The position numbers and the translations under genes were made by a program. A DNA stretch of 64,000 nucleotides from a virus (taxonomy: Duplodnaviria; Caudoviricetes), in IMG/VR virus record IMGVR_UViG_2901802297_000002, positions 1 through 64,000 of that record; one strand, given 5' to 3'. Positions within the stretch are counted from its first letter, which is position 1, and the number at the start of each line of letters is the position of its first letter. Under the pieces are notes generated by a model. The model was given only the letters and a program-made list of their open reading frames with translations, did not search any database and had not been told where the DNA came from. Below are positions 32,306 to 39,610 of this stretch, in pieces.

Positions 32306-32541
32306 TGAGAGGAATGATTGCAGCACCTACCCGCCGTATTCTCAACATGAAGGAAGCGGCTTCATACATGGGTATGTCTGTAACCACATTCAGGGAGCAA
32401 GTCGCGCCGCAAGTAAAAGGTGTAAGGGTGCTGCCGAAGCGCATTAGCTACGATGTAGAGGAATTAAACAGCTTTATTGATCGTATGTCAGGGAAATCAA
32501 CGGATTCTCACGAACAGAATTTCTGGGATAAATTCAGGTGA
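32302..32541 (+). CDS. xis: Excisionase-like HTH protein
   Basis: L...EAASYMGMS.TTF...YD..EL..FID; directly upstream of int. Confidence 0.75.
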   Translation: MMRGMIAAPTRRILNMKEAASYMGMSVTTFREQVAPQVKGVRVLPKRISYDVEELNSFIDRMSGKSTDSHEQNFWDKFR

Positions 32542-33566
32542 CAATCATACGCCTGAAATACGTTCACAAGTTCCCCGGCCGCAATGGGAAGACTCGTTAT
32601 TATCTCAGAAAGCCGGGGCATAAGCAGGCTAAGCTGCCAGATCCATCCAGCCCAGATTTCTATGCCGAATATCTGCGCCTCCTGAATGGGGACGCCCCAA
32701 AGATAGAAGTGCAGAAGTCTAAAACGATTGAAGGCAGCTTGCTTGACCTTATCGTGCAGTGGAAAACATCCCACAAATATAAAACCATCAAACAGAGCAC
32801 GAAACAGGTATATGATCGGCTTCTGAACAGAATAGCTGCAATGGATTGCGCTCAAGGCGCGGTCAAGCATATGGCTCCGCAAAATATTCGCTTCATCATG
32901 CGCCAATATGAAGAGGCAGGCCCCACAACAGCCAACCGCATATTAAGCATTCTCAGCATGATGCTGGACTACGCCATAGATATTGGCTGGCGTGATGATA
33001 ACCCTGCCGTGGGTATTAAGCGCCTGCAAATAAAATCCAAGGGCCTGCATTCTTGGTCTGATGCAGAGATTGAGAAATATCAGTCGCATTGGCCTACAGG
33101 CACAAAGCAGCGTCTGGCATTTGCTTTATTATTATATACGGGCCAGCGCAGAAGTGATGTTGTGCGCATGCGCCCAGATGATGTGTCTAGCGGAAGCATT
33201 AAGGTCACACAGCAGAAAACTGGGGCAAAGCTGGACATCCCCATTCATCCGAAACTTCAGGCAGAACTGAATGCTTGGCAGGATGTCGGTGCAGGAACAT
33301 TCCTTGCCACAGAGTATGGCAAGCCGTTTTCTGTGAACGGATTTTATAACAATTTTTCGGAATGGTGTCAGGAAGCCGGATTGCCCAAAGGATGCAGCCC
33401 ACATGGGTTGCGCAAAGCAGCAGCCAGACTGCTTGCAGAAGCCGGCTGCACCACGCACCAGATCGCATCCATCACAGGGCACAAGACTCTATCAGAGGTG
33501 GAAAGATATACCCGTGCTGTGGAGCAGAAACGCCTAGCTCAAGAGGCCATGATCAAGATTGAATAA
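32538..33566 (+). CDS. int: Tyrosine integrase
   Basis: YTGQRRSD, QQKTG, HGLRK, GH.T..EVERY. Confidence 0.93.
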   Translation: MTIIRLKYVHKFPGRNGKTRYYLRKPGHKQAKLPDPSSPDFYAEYLRLLNGDAPKIEVQKSKTIEGSLLDLIVQWKTSHKYKTIKQSTKQVYDRLLNRIAAMDCAQGAVKHMAPQNIRFIMRQYEEAGPTTANRILSILSMMLDYAIDIGWRDDNPAVGIKRLQIKSKGLHSWSDAEIEKYQSHWPTGTKQRLAFALLLYTGQRRSDVVRMRPDDVSSGSIKVTQQKTGAKLDIPIHPKLQAELNAWQDVGAGTFLATEYGKPFSVNGFYNNFSEWCQEAGLPKGCSPHGLRKAAARLLAEAGCTTHQIASITGHKTLSEVERYTRAVEQKRLAQEAMIKIE

Positions 33567-33638: not shown

Positions 33639-33652
33639 TGGCGGATGGGGTG
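33639..33652 (-). other. att core resembling a tRNA-Ser 3' end (CACCCCATCCGCCA)
   Basis: CCA-ending tRNA-Ser-like 14-mer ~70 bp past int; the rest of the tRNA is absent. Confidence 0.65.
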
Positions 33653-33835
33653 TCAGTCAGGATAGGTTAATAAGTATTTGATTATAAGAAATAATTAAAA
33701 ATAAATTATATGCGGATACCCACAGGATTACCCACAAATTTTGAGCGCTTGTATGTGATGCCTAAATGCCTTTCTATATGCATTAAGGTAAATTTCAGAT
33801 CACCAACCAACACTTCCATGAAGCAGAATTTTGTT

Positions 33836-34549
33836 ATGCCAAACGATTCCATCGTCCATCACAATGCAACTTGGCATCCCGGCTCTGTACGTAATGCTGT
33901 CATGGATTCAGCCCGTAAACTGGTAGAATCTAAGATACCTGTGCCTCCGAAGTCCTTTTTTAGAAAGCTAGCTAATGAGGCAGAGACACTAGCTAATGAA
34001 GCAATCGCAGAAGCAATCGCTTCTAAGGATGAAGCACCCGTTGCCCTTAATATTAAAATCGCTCATGACTTGTTTTATAATCTAAGCGATGACATTTTCC
34101 TTGCGACTGAAAATGCTAATGATCCTATCATTGCCCAGCTAGCTGCTTACTTCCTTCTCAATGCGATGGATGGTTATAATAAAGCCATTTACATGGATGC
34201 CTGGAACGGACATCCAGATCCAGAATGGGGTACAATCTGGGGCATCCATCAACGCATTCGGGACTTCACCCCGGCTTTCATATTCAAAGTCTGCATGCAC
34301 GGTGATGTGCGTTTTCTGGCTGTAGAATGCCACGCACCGAATCGTCACCTTCCTGATGATCCTCGTGCACGTCTTCGTGCACGGACAATGATAGTATCAG
34401 GTCTGCCAGTGATCGCGTTTTCTCCAAATGAGATTAAGACAGATCCTGATGCATGTGTTTCTGAAGTGAACGAGGCGCTTGTAACTCTTGCGGAAGAATT
34501 GCTCTCGAATCCCCAAAAATATGATTTTCGTCCACAGACAGGCATATAG
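33836..34549 (+). CDS. Hypothetical protein with degenerate DUF559/Vsr-like C-terminal domain
   Basis: LAVEC...H...R....G..VI.FS.NEI..DP..CV pattern; low GC; start uncertain. Confidence 0.65.
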   Translation: MPNDSIVHHNATWHPGSVRNAVMDSARKLVESKIPVPPKSFFRKLANEAETLANEAIAEAIASKDEAPVALNIKIAHDLFYNLSDDIFLATENANDPIIAQLAAYFLLNAMDGYNKAIYMDAWNGHPDPEWGTIWGIHQRIRDFTPAFIFKVCMHGDVRFLAVECHAPNRHLPDDPRARLRARTMIVSGLPVIAFSPNEIKTDPDACVSEVNEALVTLAEELLSNPQKYDFRPQTGI

Positions 34550-34551
34550 AA

Positions 34552-34602
34552 TCGCCTTCACACGGCGGGGGGTCACAGGTTCAATACCTGTCGCACCCAC
34601 CA
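34552..34602 (+). pseudogene. 3' fragment of tRNA-Val(CAC) (att site)
   Basis: Anticodon arm TCGCC-TTCACAC-GGCGG, T arm ACAGG-TTCAATA-CCTGT, ...CACCCACCA; no 5' half. Confidence 0.85.
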
Positions 34603-34727
34603 CGGTTTTTCCTAGATTTCTGCGACTTTTAGAGAATTTCTGGAATGTTGGTCAGTTCCAGTTAGGATCGTTTTATACCTATCAGAATCGATAAATCATC
34701 ACCAAATCCGTGCACGATTCTCAGGCC

Positions 34728-34756
34728 TTGTACCCGTCCCCACGCCGTACTAGAAT
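34728..34756 (+). promoter_or_regulatory. Sigma70 promoter for a non-coding transcript
   Basis: TTGTAC-17-TAGAAT. Confidence 0.7.
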
Positions 34757-34762
34757 CATGGG

Positions 34763-34991
34763 GCTGCGGCGGGTTTTTTGGTGGGCCGTGAGACGCCGCA
34801 GCACTCTATTCCGGTGCTAGGCGCAATGGTTAGTAGGCACTTCGGGTCATAGGCCCGGTAAAAGCGCGGCGAAACCCTGAACAGGTGAAGCATATTCACC
34901 GACCGGAACCATTTCCTATTTGGAAACAGTTCACTCCCCGTTATAACGCCCGCAAGCCAAGAGCCTGTCCGCTACCTATGGCGGCTCTTGG
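34763..34991 (+). ncRNA. Candidate structured ncRNA containing a tRNA-like domain (34810-34911)
   Basis: 5' 9-bp hairpin, cloverleaf-like domain ending in ACCA, and 3' 9-bp hairpin; no ORF in track. Confidence 0.6.
34957..34991. terminator. Hairpin between converging transcripts
   Basis: CCAAGAGCC...GGCTCTTGG; weak U-tract. Confidence 0.45.
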
Positions 34992-35011
34992 TCTTACGTC
35001 CTGAAAAGAAT

Positions 35012-35170
35012 CTATTCCTGAGAATTCTCGGCAGCGACAGTCTGAGCGCTTGGAAGCGTCTCAATAAACTGCAGGATCTGAGCGGCTTCCTGCGCTGTAA
35101 TTAGAAACGTAGTGCTCACATTCGCTGCACCACTTGGATAAGAGACCATTACAGAAGAGTTCTTTTCCAT
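35012..35170 (-). CDS. Small hypothetical protein (52 aa, MEKNSSVMVSYP...)
   Basis: Manual translation; GGAGA RBS. Confidence 0.55.
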   Translation of the reverse strand: MEKNSSVMVSYPSGAANVSTTFLITAQEAAQILQFIETLPSAQTVAAENSQE

Positions 35171-35287
35171 CTTACTTTCTCCAAATATCATTTTTATTGG
35201 TTAGAAACCGCCAACCTGCGGCAAACATAATGATGGCGAAGGCAGATCCCACGCTGCCGAAAACCATCCCGCACTCAAAGTCCGGTG

Positions 35288-36073
35288 TCATAGCGCCACC
35301 ATCGCGTTCTGCGCTTTCAGGTCGGCTAGATCAGAACCGCTGGGATACAGACCGTTCGCCAGTGTGAGCTGCGGCCAGATCAAGCCATGCGCTTCCATGA
35401 TGCGGGATTTCAGCCAGCCCCACGTTGCCTTCTGCACGGTGCCCCATGTCAGTAGGTCAACCGTATCGGCATCCGTCAGGCCCGTGTAACTCCAGCCCAA
35501 TAGGCAATGGCCGCCGGCACTTCCGGGCGTTGTATCCCCATAGGCACCATTATCAGGTGTGAGCACACATGCACCGTTGGTGGCTTCAATCTGGTTCATG
35601 TCAGACACAGAAAGCTGCACACCCAGATAGGCCGCGCCGAAACCGGCCATCAAAAGTGCCAGACTGTTCCTATCCTGCGGATCAATACTGCCCCAGAGCG
35701 GGAAATATGGTCCACTGCCTAGCGTGTAGCCTTCCCGGCCTGCCGTTGCCAGAACATCAACCTCAATCCCGCCCAGATCTGTGTCCGGATTGCCCGGCAC
35801 ATACCCTGTGCTCCTGGCATAAAACTGCACGGCATTGGCTTGCGTCACGGCAACCTGATAGCCACCCAATGCGGCCACAGCCCGAATGTAGTTACCAATG
35901 CCCGCAGAGGTACAATCCCCCAGCGTATCGTTCCCCAACATCAGCGGCTGCGGGTCAATGTGATCCCGCACCAACTTGGCCGGAGCCTTGCGCGCCATCA
36001 TGTGCAGCTTGTCCAGCCGTGGCTGGTTGGGGATCCGCCGCGCCGGCAGGCAGCCCAGCTTACGTGTGATCAT
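35288..36073 (-). CDS. Papain-like cysteine peptidase
   Basis: LGND.LGDCT.A (Cys), GGHC (His), TWG motif. Confidence 0.7.
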   Translation of the reverse strand: MITRKLGCLPARRIPNQPRLDKLHMMARKAPAKLVRDHIDPQPLMLGNDTLGDCTSAGIGNYIRAVAALGGYQVAVTQANAVQFYARSTGYVPGNPDTDLGGIEVDVLATAGREGYTLGSGPYFPLWGSIDPQDRNSLALLMAGFGAAYLGVQLSVSDMNQIEATNGACVLTPDNGAYGDTTPGSAGGHCLLGWSYTGLTDADTVDLLTWGTVQKATWGWLKSRIMEAHGLIWPQLTLANGLYPSGSDLADLKAQNAMVAL

Positions 36074-36462
36074 TTATGCACAATCCACTTCTCGCATGCC
36101 AGCACCAGAGGTCGGCATGCAGCATACGGGCCGCCCAGCGTGGCACTTGGCCCGGTATATTCAATCTGTGACACCCGGCCCTGTCGCAACCGTGCGACCA
36201 TGTGGCAGGTGCCATGACCGCCTACGTCCAGCTCAAAGCTGAATGGAGTCTTGAGAGTGAGCGGCCCCTGCACTTCCTGATCCTGCCGCCATTCCAGAAC
36301 CTCGCCATCTGGCAGTGATGTGCTGTTGTCAGGCACGCCAGCACAGGAAATCAGATCGGAACGCTGTATGCCGATCAGATCATGCTTGGCCTGCATGGGG
36401 GCAACAGAACATGCCCCCACCAGTAACAGCGGCAGGATAGCCAGCGTTTTCTTCCAGTGCAT
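36070..36462 (-). CDS. Lipoprotein
   Basis: Signal peptide with lipobox LVGAC. Confidence 0.75.
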   Translation of the reverse strand: MHWKKTLAILPLLLVGACSVAPMQAKHDLIGIQRSDLISCAGVPDNSTSLPDGEVLEWRQDQEVQGPLTLKTPFSFELDVGGHGTCHMVARLRQGRVSQIEYTGPSATLGGPYAACRPLVLACEKWIVHK

Positions 36463-37052
36463 TACCGGGCAGCAATGGGCCGCAGGCCATGACGTGCCAG
36501 CAGCGCATTCACCCGGTCATGGCGCCACTGCTCCGGCGTCTTGCCAATGGCATCCAGAGCAACGGAATCCGCCATCGTGCCGATCGCGCTATCCAGCACA
36601 GCAGCAACAGAGGCCACATCGGCAGAAACGGCCTGAACTTTGGCAATCAGATCTGTGCTCAGCGTTCCGGTCTCGGACTGCACCACATTGCCAACAGTTG
36701 TGGCCGCGTTCTGAATGGCCGTGATCACGCTGCTAAATTCAGCCGGCACGCTGTTCTTGTTGAAGGTGATGGAGGCCTTGCCCTGGCTAAAGGTATTCCA
36801 GGCAGAAAGTGCAGCCTGAATACCCGTGATCCCGGTATCAGCCACGGCAACAACAGCGGGCGGAACACCTGTGAAGGCCAGAACGGTTTTGACAATATTC
36901 AGGGCCGCAGTCCCGTCTGCCGTCACTTCCGCAACATTCAGCGTGTAGGTGGTCACGCCATTTGCAGTTGTGCTGGAGCAGGCAGCCAACCCGGCTGCCG
37001 TCAGGCCAAGCGCAGTCGTCCGCAGGAATCCGCGGCGAGAGAGTGATTTCAT
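36462..37052 (-). CDS. Tat-type lipoprotein
   Basis: SRRGFL twin-arginine motif plus lipobox LAAC. Confidence 0.75.
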   Translation of the reverse strand: MKSLSRRGFLRTTALGLTAAGLAACSSTTANGVTTYTLNVAEVTADGTAALNIVKTVLAFTGVPPAVVAVADTGITGIQAALSAWNTFSQGKASITFNKNSVPAEFSSVITAIQNAATTVGNVVQSETGTLSTDLIAKVQAVSADVASVAAVLDSAIGTMADSVALDAIGKTPEQWRHDRVNALLARHGLRPIAAR

Positions 37053-37105
37053 TTTGTGATGTCTTTCGTTTTTCAGATCATTTTCCCGGCGTCAGGAAAA
37101 TGGTC

Positions 37106-37471
37106 TCACTTGCTGTCCTGCGGAATCTGCACAACAGATCCGGGGCCTGCTTGTGGTGCTACAGTTTTGGAAGACATGCTGCCGCGCAACATGATCACTG
37201 CGTTAGCGGCATACTTCCAATTGAGAGCAAGGAAGTTGATAACCCGGTAAAGCAGCCAAAGCTTGCCGGACTGGTTGGCTGGAAGCGGGATCTGGGTTGC
37301 TGCCGCCCCCGCTGCCGCAAACACAACACAGGCATACAGAACCCATGTAGCTTCCGGCTGTGGAAGGGCTGTCACCATGGCAGGCAGAGACAGGCCAGCA
37401 GCAACGGCCTTGGCGGTCTGTGCCAGAACGGCAGAGCGTTTTGGCACTACGGGAACAGGTGCGTCAGTCAT
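37106..37471 (-). CDS. Holin-like membrane protein
   Basis: GGAGGT RBS; 2-3 hydrophobic segments; LYRVINFLALN motif. Confidence 0.65.
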   Translation of the reverse strand: MTDAPVPVVPKRSAVLAQTAKAVAAGLSLPAMVTALPQPEATWVLYACVVFAAAGAAATQIPLPANQSGKLWLLYRVINFLALNWKYAANAVIMLRGSMSSKTVAPQAGPGSVVQIPQDSK

Positions 37472-37637
37472 GTGCCACACCTCCCCGCAAACTGACAGGC
37501 AGCGTGTTGACTTCCACCACCTCAATCATGAGGTTCCCGTTTGGGCTGCGCTGCACATTTTTCCGTAGATCTTCGCGCATTTCTTCCGCCATCATGCGCG
37601 CAATCCTGCGCAGGTCGTTTTCGGTGTAAAACCCCAT
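37464..37637 (-). CDS. Small conserved lysis-module protein (57 aa, MGFYTENDLRRIA...VNTLPVSLRGGVAHD)
   Basis: Manual translation; AAGGA RBS; homologous to the ORF at 1-165. Confidence 0.7.
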   Translation of the reverse strand: MGFYTENDLRRIARMMAEEMREDLRKNVQRSPNGNLMIEVVEVNTLPVSLRGGVAHD

Positions 37638-37697
37638 GGGTTTCCTTTCTAAGTAACTGCCATGCCAACTGGCGCATAAGAGGCAGGAGAACCCGCC

Positions 37698-38186
37698 TCA
37701 TGCATTGATGGCCTGCTGGAATAGAGATGTGTTTGCGCTGGCATTGGCCTGCCCCAGCACCGTGTTGTAATGCTGCTTGTGGTAAGCGCTTAGGGCTGCA
37801 GCATCTATGGCTGAGGGCAATGGTTCGGGAGCGCGCAAGTATTGCACTCTGCACATACAAGCTGAATAAGCCCTGTTCTCCACAAGGCTTTCTGCTTCCG
37901 GCAGGCCAGTCAAACCGCTTGCTGCCAGTATGCGATTAGCAAGATCAGGCCGGTAACGCAGAAAGTTCAGCCAGATATCATCATGGGTTCTGGGCTCCAT
38001 CTGGAACCAGCCCAGTGCTGGCCCATTGATTTGCCGATCATGCATAAATCCACTTTCAACAAGCCCTGTGCCTGTCACCAAATTTACTGCTGAACCCCCA
38101 CCAAGATTGATGGCTTCCAATGCTGGAAGAATAGTCAGGTGCTTGATGACAGAGAGGTTCGCGCCCCATACATTTTTAGTGCTCAT
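37698..38186 (-). CDS. Endolysin, lysozyme-like/transglycosylase fold
   Basis: GT..VESG, GPALG.FQMEP.T..DIW, Y.K.HYNT..G. Confidence 0.75.
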   Translation of the reverse strand: MSTKNVWGANLSVIKHLTILPALEAINLGGGSAVNLVTGTGLVESGFMHDRQINGPALGWFQMEPRTHDDIWLNFLRYRPDLANRILAASGLTGLPEAESLVENRAYSACMCRVQYLRAPEPLPSAIDAAALSAYHKQHYNTVLGQANASANTSLFQQAINA

Positions 38187-38752
38187 GCCACCTCCATTTC
38201 ACGCGGGGGCAGAATGAACTGCGTTGTCTGGGGTTGTGGTAAGGGCTGTGTGGGGGGATGTTTCCGATGCAGGAACTGCACATTCCCAAACGCGTAATCA
38301 TCCCACGTCTGACTGGAAAGAAGCATTCCGCCAACAGCAGTAATAACACCCACCAGAAAGCCAGCTATGGCAATCCAGTATTTGATCTTTGCCGCCGCTG
38401 CATTGGCGTCCGCCTCGGATTCCTGTGCACGCGCCGCATCTGTCTGAGCCTGCAGAAGTTTTTGCTGCTCAATGCGGTTGCGTTCCTGCTGCGCTCCATT
38501 CTGTGCTGCAAGTTGCTGGGAAAGTGTAGCGATTGCTGCGCGGTTCTGGGCTGATTCCTGCGCCCTGTTTCGTTCCCGCTCCTGCCCCTGCGCTTCAATG
38601 GAAATCAGCCGGTCCATCATCGATCTCTGGCCAGACTTGAGGGTATCTACATCGTCCTCAAGTCCATCCAGACGCCGACCATGACCTGCAACAATTTGAC
38701 GCAGGTCATTATCAGCCACGCAGGGGGTGCCCGCGCTCTGTTCATCTGTCAT
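38183..38752 (-). CDS. Coiled-coil plus TM protein (holin/XhlA-like position)
   Basis: H.RRL..LE coiled coil, single TM, coupled to endolysin. Confidence 0.6.
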   Translation of the reverse strand: MTDEQSAGTPCVADNDLRQIVAGHGRRLDGLEDDVDTLKSGQRSMMDRLISIEAQGQERERNRAQESAQNRAAIATLSQQLAAQNGAQQERNRIEQQKLLQAQTDAARAQESEADANAAAAKIKYWIAIAGFLVGVITAVGGMLLSSQTWDDYAFGNVQFLHRKHPPTQPLPQPQTTQFILPPREMEVA

Positions 38753-38776
38753 TAAGTTTCTCGAATGTTTTCGATT

Positions 38777-39610
38777 TTACCCGACAATCAGGCCGTTCTG
38801 CTTCAGAACACGGCGAATTTTCGTTGCCATGTCCTGAATTTCACTCTGCGTCATCGCGCGCTGAAATCCCGCCCAGAACGACAGTTTTGCCCCAAGGCAC
38901 GGGGCATTGCCATTTTGAGCATCATACGAACTGCCAATCAGCAAATTGGTATCCGCCACGTTATACCCGGTCCCCATAGCACCGGCAGACAGCGCGTTAC
39001 CGGGCGCATTTGTCAGATCGTAAAACGTCAGGGTTTTTGTTGAGGTCGTTTGTGTCAGCGCGACTAAAATGGGGGTTTCGGCAATAGGTAGTGCTGCTGT
39101 GGGAGTGAAAATCTGGTGTAGCGTGCTATATCCAGAATATACCCCCTGCGAATACCCCTCCCAGCGAAATGTATTCGAAGATTGCGCATTCGCCTGAACA
39201 CCAACCCCCTGCAATGTTGAGCCACCAACAATATTCCCAAACGGGATAATGCCGGACATACCTGCTGTCACCGGATTACCCTGCCCCGTTGGAGCCGATG
39301 CAGCATTAAAAAAATCTGGTGTGACAACGGCAAATACCGTGAAATCCTCACTGCCAGACAGGTTACTGACAATCTCAGATTTCGTATTGTTCACAACAAT
39401 ATTGTTCTGATTGACAGTAATGCTGCTTTCGCCTGTCACTGTCGGGGATTTTGCCCCAGATGCCTGATTAGTCAGGCTGCTCGTTATGCTGCCTGCGCCA
39501 GTGCGATCACCAAACACATACCAGTCTGTAATTGTGCTGTCCCCGGCGGGATCAAACCCAACAGACGTGGAAAATGATGCACCTGCAATGGTAAGAGAAA
39601 GACCTGTCAT
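38777..39610 (-). CDS. LamG/concanavalin-like virion protein
   Basis: DFTVFAVV, LLIGS, FQRAMT..EI motifs. Confidence 0.6.
   Translation of the reverse strand: MTGLSLTIAGASFSTSVGFDPAGDSTITDWYVFGDRTGAGSITSSLTNQASGAKSPTVTGESSITVNQNNIVVNNTKSEIVSNLSGSEDFTVFAVVTPDFFNAASAPTGQGNPVTAGMSGIIPFGNIVGGSTLQGVGVQANAQSSNTFRWEGYSQGVYSGYSTLHQIFTPTAALPIAETPILVALTQTTSTKTLTFYDLTNAPGNALSAGAMGTGYNVADTNLLIGSSYDAQNGNAPCLGAKLSFWAGFQRAMTQSEIQDMATKIRRVLKQNGLIVG

What the first reader, a model, noticed from the sequence alone, without database searches (positions are those of the whole stretch)
34728..34991. Promoter-driven, CCA-ending tRNA-like RNA at the edge of prophage 2
Seen: a near-consensus promoter (TTGTAC-17-TAGAAT) precedes an ORF-free structured region. 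It has a 9-bp hairpin (34763-34802), then a 102-nt domain (34810-34911), then further hairpins. The domain has an acceptor-like stem TCCGGT/ACCGGA plus A-CCA, a D-loop-like CAATGGTTAG, and an initiator-tRNA-like arm TCGGG-TCATAGG-CCCGG whose CAT is out of register. It also has a ~25-nt extra arm and a correctly placed 5-bp/7-nt T arm with a non-canonical loop (AGCATAT). Pairing is preserved while decoding determinants are not, which argues against simple decay. Established: P1 C4 and P4 CI immunity RNAs and bacterial Y RNAs are tRNA-like processed RNAs. Inference: an undescribed tRNA mimic, either a decoy for tRNA-targeting toxins or anticodon nucleases, or an RNase P-processed regulatory RNA expressed in the lysogen.
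Basis: partly seen in the sequence, partly recalled or inferred. Interest (0 to 1): 0.78.

Follow-up and report, generated by a model that had tools for sequence, protein, structure and literature searches.

The report
Weak copy of phage cloverleaf RNA
A promoter-driven, gene-free stretch near the end of an Acetobacter prophage holds a degraded copy of a small, previously uncatalogued cloverleaf-shaped RNA that, in related phages, sits exactly where real tRNA genes sit in a shared small-RNA operon.

Summary
The sequence features are real, but the tRNA reading of them is only partly right. The 102-nt domain (34810-34911, called W here) belongs to a small RNA family: 7 loci, and 3 of 57 Acetobacter species genomes. 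The family has six helices, and 6 base pairs keep pairing through compensatory changes. ARAGORN and Rfam find no tRNA or known family.

The "anticodon arm" is a 7-bp stem with a 3-nt loop. The "D loop" is a hairpin stem. Loops vary while junction strands are invariant, the opposite of tRNA.

The window copy is the weakest member. It carries all 4 broken pairs of the family alignment, and its fold is no better than shuffled sequence (z -0.93; relatives -3.2 and -4.8).

The promoter matches only 8 of 12 consensus positions but recurs in 14 of 15 related arrays. In relatives it drives real tRNAs (Asn, Met, Gln) and other structured modules. W occupies the same slot as tRNA-Gln, with an identical 3' flank.

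The 9-bp hairpin is the remnant of a second, widespread, Rfam-less phage RNA, "Module A" (51 viral contigs).

Best reading: a tRNA-shaped RNA in a phage tRNA/small-RNA cargo operon, probably matured like a tRNA. Its function is unknown and expression is only weakly indicated. The scan noted this stretch before (e1-6205933).

The parts
34728..34756 (+). Promoter: -35 TTGTAC (34728-34733), 17-nt spacer, -10 TAGAAT (34751-34756). The transcript probably starts near G34760-34763.
   Evidence: Sequence read. Not listed by the consensus scan (8 of 12). The same layout, TTGYRC-N17/18-TAnnnT-5 nt-GGCTG, occurs in 14 of 15 arrays. The start site is inferred.
34763..34802 (+). 9-bp 5' hairpin. It keeps only the closing stem (GCUGCGGCG/CGCCGCAGC) of 'Module A', which is a full cloverleaf-like RNA in relatives.
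   Evidence: Searches show the same stem closing Module A in 9-10 arrays. The reduced form is shared with L011 and L010.
34810..34911 (+). W domain, a six-helix cloverleaf-like RNA:
- H1 34810-34815 / 34902-34907
- H2 34817-34824 / 34829-34836 (2 pairs broken here)
- H3 34837-34841 / 34863-34867 (A.C here)
- H4 34842-34848 / 34852-34858, loop AUA
- H5 34868-34870 / 34875-34877 (C.C here)
- H6 34884-34889 / 34895-34900
- 3' tail ACCA 34908-34911
   Evidence: Alignment A2 and pair counts. Model R1 scores the window copy 107.2 bits and relatives 119-123 bits. G.U pairs at 6 columns fit the + strand only.
34906..34932 (+). Hairpin Y (GAAC-C-AUUUCC / UAUUU / GGAAA-C-AGUUC). It overlaps the last 6 nt of W. 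Relatives have UUGG/CCAA in place of UUUCC/GGAAA.
   Evidence: read by eye; not counted formally.
34933..34955 (+). Conserved linker containing the 10-nt palindrome CGTTATAACG (34939-34948).
   Evidence: Shared with L003, L021 and L010. Function unknown.
34956..34992 (+). Hairpin T (GCCAAGAGCC ... GGCTCTTGGT). It is the right boundary of the variable cargo slot and faces the end of the minus-strand operon.
   Evidence: The exact 29-mer occurs in 7 viral loci, in phiAP1 (L001) and in 6 genome loci: L011, L013 (same G001 contig as L011), L014, L021, L025 and L028. The upstream content is unrelated between them. The terminator scan did not call it.
34552..34608 (+). Context: the 3' part of a tRNA-Val gene ending in CCA, about 120 nt upstream of the promoter.
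   Evidence: RNA/DNA contigs of relatives continue 5' of position 34569 with the rest of a tRNA (GAC anticodon region) (table 7).

Best explanation
The stretch is the reduced version of a phage small-RNA cargo operon. The operon lies near the end of a phiAP1-like Acetobacter prophage, between the attachment-site end and a conserved boundary hairpin.

A conserved sigma-70-type promoter transcribes, in this order:
1. the remnant closing stem of a tRNA-like RNA (Module A);
2. W, a 102-nt six-helix RNA with the outline of a long-arm tRNA;
3. two hairpins.

W's closing stem is 6 bp plus a G.G layer and is stacked on a 5-bp hairpin. This gives the 12 layers of a tRNA acceptor/T minihelix, followed by N-CCA.

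In related phages the same promoter drives real tRNAs and several other structured modules, and W sits in the tRNA slot.

Inferred mechanism: the transcript is cut by the host tRNA-maturation enzymes (RNase P at U34810, 3' trimming to CCA). This would release a stable, non-decoding, tRNA-shaped RNA of about 100 nt that engages some factor reading the acceptor end of tRNAs. The invariant sequence of the closing stem points to this.

Shown: the family, its structure, its strand, its slot and the promoter conservation.
Inferred: processing, stability and function.

The copy in this window is the most degraded member and may work poorly or not at all.
For: - Homologues: L022, L023 and L024 (3 of 57 Acetobacter genomes), L035 (viral contig), L063/L077 (soil metagenome, 36.9 bits) and L083 (77.8-kb viral contig, 32.7 bits).
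- Structure: 34 pairs, 97.1% of cells paired, 0 of 500 shuffles as high, 6 pairs changed on both sides. The T-like helix has UA/GC/AU and AU/UA/GC/UG pair types across 6 sequences.
- An RNA-library contig variant carries C34865T, which turns the window's A.C mismatch into A-U.
- Relatives fold into the consensus as their minimum-energy structure, with z = -3.24 and -4.81.
- Slot: the 3' end of Module A plus 4-7 nt is followed by W in 4 arrays and by tRNA-Asn, tRNA-Met or tRNA-Gln in 3 arrays. W (L023) and tRNA-Gln (L039) share an identical flank of about 44 nt starting at GCCA|GTTTCAGG.
- Promoter present in 14 of 15 arrays.
- The closing-stem sequence UCCGGUG...GACCGGA is invariant in all 7 loci. 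In L063 and L083 one strand was not part of the search pattern.
- Sibling phages hold protein cargo in the same slot: glycosyltransferase PF04488 and DUF1796.
- RNA-library contigs of a related array have depth 447 and 1262, against 37-316 for flanking contigs.
Against: - ARAGORN never calls W a tRNA, even at 60% threshold. The single call in the window is in another register. The Rfam tRNA model gives nothing at E<=5-10.
- There is no 7-nt anticodon loop. The Acetobacter T-like loops (AGCAUAU, GGCGGAU) lack the U1...A5 T-loop rule. Loops vary while junction strands are invariant.
- CCA is replaced by CCG in L035 and CCC in L063.
- The closing stem never covaries, so its pairing is not proven by covariation.
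- The window copy has 4 broken pairs and z = -0.93.
- Hairpin T is not a canonical terminator.
- Only 4-6 distinct sequences exist, and they are related, so shuffle controls overstate significance.
- Expression evidence comes from assembled contigs only. One of those contigs also spans the promoter and the upstream tRNA fragment.
- No RNA ends are known.
Confidence: 0.5

Rival explanations
1. In this prophage the locus is a decaying remnant. The family is functional elsewhere, but here Module A is gutted, the other modules are lost and W is drifting. What is seen would then be a relic that merely keeps a promoter.
For: All 4 unpaired cells of the family alignment lie in the window copy. Its free energy is -33.6 kcal/mol against -45.8 and -47.6 in relatives, and z = -0.93. 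Module A is reduced to its closing stem. Modules B, C and D, found in most of the 15 arrays, are absent. L023 shows that tRNA decay does occur in these arrays, since it carries a tRNA-Gln remnant.
Against: The promoter is intact. H4 and H6 are perfectly paired through changes specific to this copy. A close variant restores H3 with A-U. The reduced 5' hairpin form is shared with L011 and L010, so it is a maintained variant rather than a unique lesion.
Confidence: 0.2
2. W is a cis-acting element of the operon with no trans function of its own. It would serve as a processing 'punctuation' signal or a stabilising or insulating structure.
For: W always lies between other modules or hairpins. It is present in only a minority of arrays: 5 of 15, 2 of 51 viral contigs that carry Module A, and 0 of 51 further sources searched. 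The tRNA-like minihelix geometry is what RNase P needs.
Against: Punctuation needs only a minihelix, yet about 70 of 102 columns are invariant, including junction strands such as CUGAACAGG, even in distant L063 and L083. In the window there is no neighbouring cargo RNA to release.
Confidence: 0.14
3. W is a junction RNA of another kind, such as a small ligand-binding or self-cleaving RNA. Its resemblance to tRNA would be superficial.
For: Conserved junction strands with variable peripheral loops are typical of aptamers and small ribozymes. In L083, W ends 22 nt before the ribosome-binding site of a DUF7831 gene.
Against: W is not consistently upstream of a gene. In Acetobacter arrays it is followed by hairpins or other RNA modules, and in L063 by a terminator-like hairpin and a convergent gene. 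No Rfam ribozyme or riboswitch match was found.
Confidence: 0.08
4. W is a dead class II tRNA gene (pseudogene) with no selected structure.
For: Overall length and arm order resemble a long-arm tRNA. tRNA remnants do exist in these arrays.
Against: 6 pairs show compensatory change and no broken pair occurs outside the window copy. The triloop arm is shared by all members. The same architecture is found in distant L063 and L083.
Confidence: 0.04
5. W is an antisense immunity RNA like P4 CI or P1 C4, processed from a tRNA-like precursor, that pairs with phage leader sequences.
Against: There are no reverse-complement matches of 13-14 nt elsewhere in the 64-kb window, and 2 matches of 12 nt against 1.1 in shuffles. 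No Rfam match at E<=10. The hypervariable H4 arm shows no visible partner.
Confidence: 0.03

Closest known systems
Small stable RNAs co-transcribed with tRNAs in phage tRNA clusters (T4 'species 1 and 2' / rnaC, rnaD). Recalled from memory; a literature search turned up no paper I could read on them.
   Same: A phage operon mixes real tRNAs with tRNA-sized, non-decoding structured RNAs of unknown function that presumably share the tRNA maturation pathway.
   Different: The host is an alphaproteobacterium, the phage is temperate, and the operon is a cargo unit at the prophage end. Processing is not shown.
GOLLD and ROOL RNAs (Rfam; Weinberg et al. 2017, PMC5737381, passages read)
   Same: These are phage or prophage non-coding RNAs often located near tRNAs. 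The paper suggests the proximity may arise from co-transcription.
   Different: They are 500-800 nt ornate RNAs. W is 102 nt. No Rfam match was found.
Bacterial Y RNAs (YrlA) with a tRNA-like module
   Same: Non-decoding RNA that copies part of the tRNA shape.
   Different: No Rfam match. No Ro/TROVE gene in the 79.7-kb record. The RNA termini sit at the acceptor-like stem rather than at a Ro-binding stem. W lacks the T-loop/D-loop elbow signature.
tmRNA tRNA-like domain
   Same: Acceptor-like stem plus T-like arm, with the anticodon arm replaced by other structure. This resembles Module A more than W.
   Different: ARAGORN finds no tmRNA. There is no tag reading frame and no G3.U70.
P4 CI and P1 C4 immunity RNAs
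   Same: Small phage RNAs matured by RNase P (established knowledge, recalled).
   Different: No complementary targets in the window. No Rfam hit.
Phage-encoded tRNAs that rescue translation from tRNA-cleaving defences (for example T5 tRNA versus PARIS; PMC11455837, seen only as a search listing and abstract)
   Same: The relatives' arrays carry real tRNAs (Asn, Met, Gln) as phage cargo. W shares their slot.
   Different: W cannot decode, so any role would be as a decoy or binder. Nothing here tests that.

Membership tests
Canonical tRNA (Rfam RF00005 / ARAGORN) | Recognised by a tRNA covariance model or by ARAGORN | tested here: not met
   0 tRNAs in the window. No RF00005 match at E<=10 on 34300-35200 or at E<=5 on loci holding W. 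ARAGORN relaxed to 60% never calls W in register in 4 of 4 sequences.
Canonical tRNA (Rfam RF00005 / ARAGORN) | 5-bp anticodon stem with a 7-nt loop carrying U33 and an anticodon | tested here: not met
   A 7-bp stem with 3-nt loop (AUA, GCG, GCA) in 4 of 4 distinct sequences.
Canonical tRNA (Rfam RF00005 / ARAGORN) | D-loop GG and T-loop UUCRANY forming the elbow | tested here: not met
   The first hairpin has a 4-nt loop AAAG/AAUG. The last hairpin loops are AGCAUAU and GGCGGAU. Only the distant L083 (UGGAACU) and L063 (UGCAAAU) fit the U1...A5 rule.
Canonical tRNA (Rfam RF00005 / ARAGORN) | 7-bp acceptor stacked on a 5-bp T stem, followed by discriminator and CCA | tested here: inconclusive
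   6 bp plus a G.G layer plus 5 bp gives 12 layers. N-CCA is present in 5 of 7 loci, CCG in L035 and CCC in L063.
tmRNA | tRNA-like domain plus tag reading frame, detected by ARAGORN or Rfam | tested here: not met
   (ARAGORN run with the tmRNA option on 13 arrays: 0).
Bacterial Y RNA (YrlA/YrlB) | Rfam model match and an associated Ro (TROVE) gene | tested here: not met
   No Rfam match. PF05731 absent from the 79.7-kb record, while the control genomes gave hits.
P1 C4 / P4 CI antisense immunity RNA | Complementarity to target sites in the phage's own leader, and a family model match | tested here: not met
   0 matches of 13-14 nt and 2 of 12 nt against 1.1 expected. No Rfam match.
GOLLD / ROOL | Rfam model match; 500-800 nt multi-domain RNA | tested here: not met
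Sigma-70-type promoter | Two hexamers near consensus with 16-18 nt spacing | tested here: inconclusive
   8 of 12 positions, below the scan's threshold. Position, spacing and TAnnnT are kept in 14 of 15 arrays. No transcription start has been mapped.
W family (defined here, model R1) | Six-helix consensus with invariant UCCGGUG, CUGAACAGG and CCGRCCGGARCC | tested here: met
   The window scores 107.2 bits. This is partly by construction, since it is one of 5 training sequences. L063 (36.9 bits) and L083 (32.7 bits) are independent.

The most novel reading that the evidence does not exclude
W and the much commoner Module A may be two members of an unrecognised toolkit of phage 'tRNA top-half mimics'. 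These would be non-decoding RNAs that keep an acceptor-like stem and, in Module A, a tRNA elbow. They are carried as promoter-equipped cargo beside real tRNAs. They would act in trans on host machinery that reads tRNA ends or elbows. Examples are tRNA-cleaving defence nucleases, for which they would be decoys, or synthetases, CCA-adding enzyme or RNase P, which they would titrate.
Probability: 0.2. Interest if true: 0.85.

Novelty: new variant of a known kind. Interest (0 to 1): 0.6.

Why it matters
Phage tRNAs have recently been tied to escape from tRNA-cleaving defences. Non-decoding, tRNA-shaped RNAs carried in the same operons are almost unstudied.

This work defines a small RNA family (W) with covariation support. 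It also defines a widespread second family, Module A:
- exact 22-mer in 51 viral contigs;
- present in 18 of 57 Acetobacter genomes;
- present in Caulobacter and Komagataeibacter phages;
- all 5 pairs of its first hairpin covary.

Neither family is in Rfam 15.

These are concrete, testable candidates for tRNA mimicry in temperate phages of industrial acetic acid bacteria. phiAP1 and its cured host already exist as a genetic system (PMC8566455).

For this particular window the value is lower, because it holds the weakest copy.

Tried and rejected
- E. coli genomes: no match to the region.
- Family-level DNA search of 401 Acetobacteraceae genomes: only weak chance-level hits apart from G001.
- First metagenome scan with a 22-mer: 0 hits.
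- Second metagenome scan with a 17-mer: 33 stretches, of which only 2 (L063 and L077, the same sequence) passed model R1. The other 31 are taken as chance.
- Class-level pattern search in 401 genomes with 1 mismatch: 9 hits against a similar number in reversed-pattern controls, none with a hairpin. Rejected as chance.
- Model R1 on 51 further sources that carry Module A: 0 hits.
- A weak 'skipping-rope' Rfam hit in L042 (24.8 bits, below the cut-off of 36.7, E = 0.078) lies downstream of Module A. It was not pursued.
- Co-variation between W's variable arm and Module A's hypervariable insert: rejected by eye, because L023, L024 and L035 share an identical W but have unrelated inserts.
- A host tRNA with the same acceptor stem: pattern hits in 5 genomes were at control level. 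Apart from W itself, none looked like a tRNA in the 80 letters shown. ARAGORN was not run on them.
- HNH reading of the ORF inside L039's Module A: Pfam gave only zf-FCS below cut-off, so 'HNH-like' is my impression only.
- Window ORFs right of hairpin T gave no Pfam family. The 'lysis cassette' label of earlier notes is therefore not verified here.
- A first script for Module A pair counts was mis-registered and is discarded. It was replaced.
- RNA runs: only assembled contigs were available. Parts without cover and contig ends say nothing about RNA ends, and shares of 0.06-0.08 are no evidence of habitat.
- Literature: no paper in the held library holds both 'tRNA-like' and 'Acetobacter'. 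The phiAP1 paper (PMC8566455) was read only as 'find' passages, and 'non-coding' occurs 0 times in it. Searches found no description of these RNAs. Supplements were not available and could hold annotations I did not see.

Full report
**What is in the window**

The window belongs to a 79,715-base provirus record. Its closest named relative around the finding is the temperate Acetobacter myovirus phiAP1 (94% identity over 37% of a 601-nt query).

- TTGTAC-17-TAGAAT at 34728-34756;
- a 9-bp hairpin at 34763-34802;
- a 102-nt domain at 34810-34911 that ends in ACCA;
- two further hairpins, at 34906-34932 and 34956-34992.

No ORF longer than 47 aa overlaps the region. ARAGORN finds no tRNA or tmRNA in the whole window. 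Rfam finds nothing at gathering scores and nothing relevant at E<=10. The consensus scan lists neither the promoter (8 of 12 positions) nor a terminator at the last hairpin.

**Place in the prophage**

The phiAP1-type attachment core occurs once, at 33639-33652. It lies between a tyrosine integrase (32538-33566, PF00589) and an ORF without family (33710-34549). The ORF is followed by the 3' part of a tRNA-Val gene (34552-34608) and then by the finding.

Contigs from related strains continue 5' of position 34569 with the rest of that tRNA. phiAP1 has the same order of elements, so "near the end of prophage 2" is fair.

**Conserved frame, variable content**

phiAP1 and the window are nearly identical up to the promoter and again at the last hairpin ("T"). 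Between those points they are unrelated.

The T 29-mer is exact in 7 viral loci, in phiAP1 and in 6 genome loci: L011, L013 (same G001 contig as L011), L014, L021, L025 and L028. The upstream content varies:
- RNA arrays in the window, L001, L003, L010, L011 and L021;
- protein genes in L005, L006, L009, L014, L025 and L028. In L006 these are a glycosyltransferase (PF04488) and a DUF1796 protein.

The slot is therefore a cargo site.

The promoter layout TTGYRC-N17/18-TAnnnT-5 nt-GGCTG is found in 14 of the 15 arrays I collected. Those arrays came from 8 of 57 Acetobacter species genomes and from viral contigs.

**The operon in relatives**

Behind this promoter, relatives carry a modular series of structured RNAs. 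In 3 of 15 arrays they also carry real tRNAs: Asn-GTT in L004, Met-CAT in L024 and Gln-TTG in L039.

Most arrays start with "Module A", which consists of:
- a 7-bp closing stem GCUGCGG/CCGCAGC;
- a 2-nt linker;
- a 5-bp hairpin with loop GAWGGA;
- a hypervariable body of 45-150 nt;
- a 5-bp hairpin with loop UAUCAAGC that abuts the 3' strand of the closing stem.

The window's 9-bp hairpin is this closing stem with the interior replaced. L011 and L010 share that reduced form.

**The 102-nt domain (W)**

Homologues at about 80% identity occur in three Acetobacter genomes, as L022, L023 and L024. R1 finds W in 3 of 57 genomes, plus one weak hit at E = 0.045. W also occurs in viral contig L035.

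More distant copies are in a soil metagenome (L063 = L077, 36.9 bits) and in a 77.8-kb viral contig (L083, 32.7 bits).

The five Acetobacter rows (four distinct sequences) give a six-helix consensus of 34 pairs. Of the cells, 97.1% are paired, 0 of 500 shuffles reach that value, and sliding the partners drops pairing to 27-40%. Six pairs change on both sides, all in H4 and H6. With L063 and L083 added, two pairs of the T-like helix show three or four pair types. G.U pairs at six columns fit only the + strand.

Caveats: there are few sequences and they are related. The closing stem never varies, so its pairing is not proven by covariation.

**How tRNA-like is it?**

The arm order is the outline of a long-arm tRNA: closing stem, first hairpin, long arm, small GAAA hairpin, then a last hairpin next to the 3' strand. 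The 6 bp + G.G + 5 bp stack equals the 12 layers of an acceptor/T minihelix.

The details do not fit a tRNA:
- The "anticodon arm" is 7 bp with a 3-nt loop in every member.
- The "D loop" is a stem.
- The T-like loop of the Acetobacter copies lacks the T-loop signature.
- Loops vary while junction strands (UCCGGUG, AAAAG, CUGAACAGG, CCGRCCGGARCC) are invariant. This is the reverse of tRNA.
- CCA is present in 5 of 7 loci.
- ARAGORN relaxed to 60% and the Rfam tRNA model do not recognise W.

**Slot equivalence**

The 3' end of Module A plus 4-7 nt is followed by W in the window, L022, L023 and L035. In L004, L024 and L039 it is followed by a real tRNA.

W in L023 and tRNA-Gln in L039 are followed by the same sequence of about 44 nt, beginning GCCA|GTTTCAGG. 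This is the strongest argument that W is handled like a tRNA, or at least exchanged as a tRNA-sized cassette.

In L083, W lies 15 nt downstream of another tRNA-like RNA. That RNA has a canonical T arm, a 7-bp acceptor stem, ACCA, and an insert of about 45 nt in place of the anticodon loop. The pairing of such an RNA with W therefore recurs in a distant phage.

**State of the window copy**

All four unpaired cells of the family alignment are in the window copy: G.A and C.U in H2, A.C in H3 and C.C in H5. Its minimum free energy is -33.6 kcal/mol with z = -0.93. The values for L023 and L022 are -45.8 (z = -3.24) and -47.6 (z = -4.81), and their minimum-energy structures equal the consensus.

A close variant seen in an RNA-library contig carries C34865T, which makes the H3 pair A-U. 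The window also lacks the other modules. It is the most reduced array of the 15.

**Expression**

Only assembled contigs were available. Two RNA runs of one study hold a related array on short contigs of depth 447 and 1262, against 37-316 for flanking contigs. One of those contigs also spans the promoter and the upstream tRNA fragment. A third run holds a near-identical copy of 34726-34912 at depth 43.9.

This is a weak hint of expression. It says nothing about RNA ends.

**Function**

Nothing in the window pairs with the RNA. There are 0 matches of 13-14 nt, and 2 matches of 12 nt against 1.1 expected. The record has no Ro gene. No host tRNA with the same acceptor stem turned up in 5 genomes, though this was a weak test.

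I therefore commit to the following reading. W is a non-decoding, tRNA-shaped RNA of a phage tRNA/small-RNA cargo operon. It is probably matured by RNase P and 3' trimming, and it acts through its invariant acceptor-like end. The processing and the function are inference.

**Known comparators**

The general theme is known: phage or prophage non-coding RNAs lie beside tRNAs and are possibly co-transcribed with them (GOLLD and ROOL; PMC5737381, passages read). T4's stable RNAs in its tRNA cluster are recalled from memory only.

I found no description of W or Module A in Rfam 15 or in the paper searches. Supplements were closed.

**Module A, beyond the finding**

- Its exact 22-mer occurs in 51 viral contigs.
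- At 2 or fewer mismatches it occurs in 18 of 57 Acetobacter genomes, with 0 hits in controls.
- It occurs in Komagataeibacter phages phiKX1 and phiKX2 and in Caulobacter phage DMCA.
- Across 23 distinct sequences, all 5 pairs of its first hairpin change on both sides, 99.1% of cells are paired, and the loop GAWGGA is invariant.
- Many copies have a -10-like hexamer just upstream.
- Only 7 of 53 copies have a tRNA within 1.2 kb.
- Muramidase-type genes are the commonest neighbours: clusters of 8, 4 and 3 of 55 copies. Representatives match PF00959 and PF00182, with a weak transglycosylase match.

**Verdict**

The tRNA-mimic reading is partly supported at family level. The copy in this window is degraded, and function remains open.

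Noticed in passing
window 34763-34802; L094 1393-1530; L095 383-527; L096-L144: 'Module A' is a widespread phage RNA absent from Rfam. It has a 7-bp closing stem, a hairpin with invariant loop GAWGGA, a hypervariable body, and a hairpin with loop UAUCAAGC. Its exact 22-mer is in 51 viral contigs, and it is in 18 of 57 Acetobacter genomes, Caulobacter phage DMCA and Komagataeibacter phages phiKX1/phiKX2. All 5 pairs of the first hairpin covary (23 sequences).
   Followed up: partly
window 34956-34992: Hairpin T is identical, loop included, in more than a dozen loci whose upstream content is unrelated (RNA arrays or protein cargo). It is not a canonical terminator on either strand. It may be a protein-binding or recombination boundary of the cargo slot.
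   Followed up: partly
L004, L010, L022, L023, L037, L038, L039, L001, L021 (arrays in /scratch/arrays.fa): Further recurring RNA modules without an Rfam match:
- B (GGUGCCAGACCCG...CUGGAAGUCGUC...GGCGCAGA).
- C (phiAP1, L021, L004, L039, with compensatory changes in L039).
- A 3' motif GCAG-N-CGG-UGGAAGC-CCG.
- U (GUGACAG-stem-GAGAGA-stem), which precedes W in L024 and L063.
- Spacer hairpin S after CCA.
   Followed up: partly
L083 2449-2560 and 2574-2671: A distant phage contig has a tRNA-like RNA with a canonical T arm, a 7-bp acceptor stem, ACCA, and an insert of about 45 nt in place of the anticodon loop. ARAGORN does not call it. W follows 15 nt downstream, and then comes a DUF7831 gene (1.5e-41).
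   Followed up: partly
L039 1033-1443 (- strand): Module A of this array holds an insert of about 480 nt with a 136-aa Cys/His-rich ORF. It looked HNH-like to me, but Pfam gave only zf-FCS below cut-off.
   Followed up: partly
window 34552-34608: A tRNA-Val 3' fragment lies inside phiAP1-type phages, although their mapped attachment site is in tRNA-Ser (core at 33639-33652). It may be a relic of an older integration module next to the RNA array. In L038 and L042 the arrays start 130-170 nt after complete host tRNAs.
   Followed up: partly
L023 (reverse strand, about 330 nt downstream of W): A decayed remnant of the tRNA-Gln found intact in L039 (TGTCGTCTAATCGGTAG...). tRNA genes in these arrays do decay.
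   Followed up: no
L006 5209-7011; also L005, L009, L014, L028: In sibling phages the same slot before hairpin T carries a glycosyltransferase (PF04488) and a DUF1796 papain-like protein. This is typical lysogenic-conversion cargo.
   Followed up: partly
window 34939-34948: A 10-nt palindrome, CGTTATAACG, lies in the conserved linker before hairpin T. It is shared with L003 and L021.
   Followed up: no
window 35012-39610 (- strand): None of the nine minus-strand ORFs tested has a Pfam family. One (35288-36073) matches only PHROG 19005 of unknown function. The lysis-cassette label of earlier notes could not be verified.
   Followed up: partly
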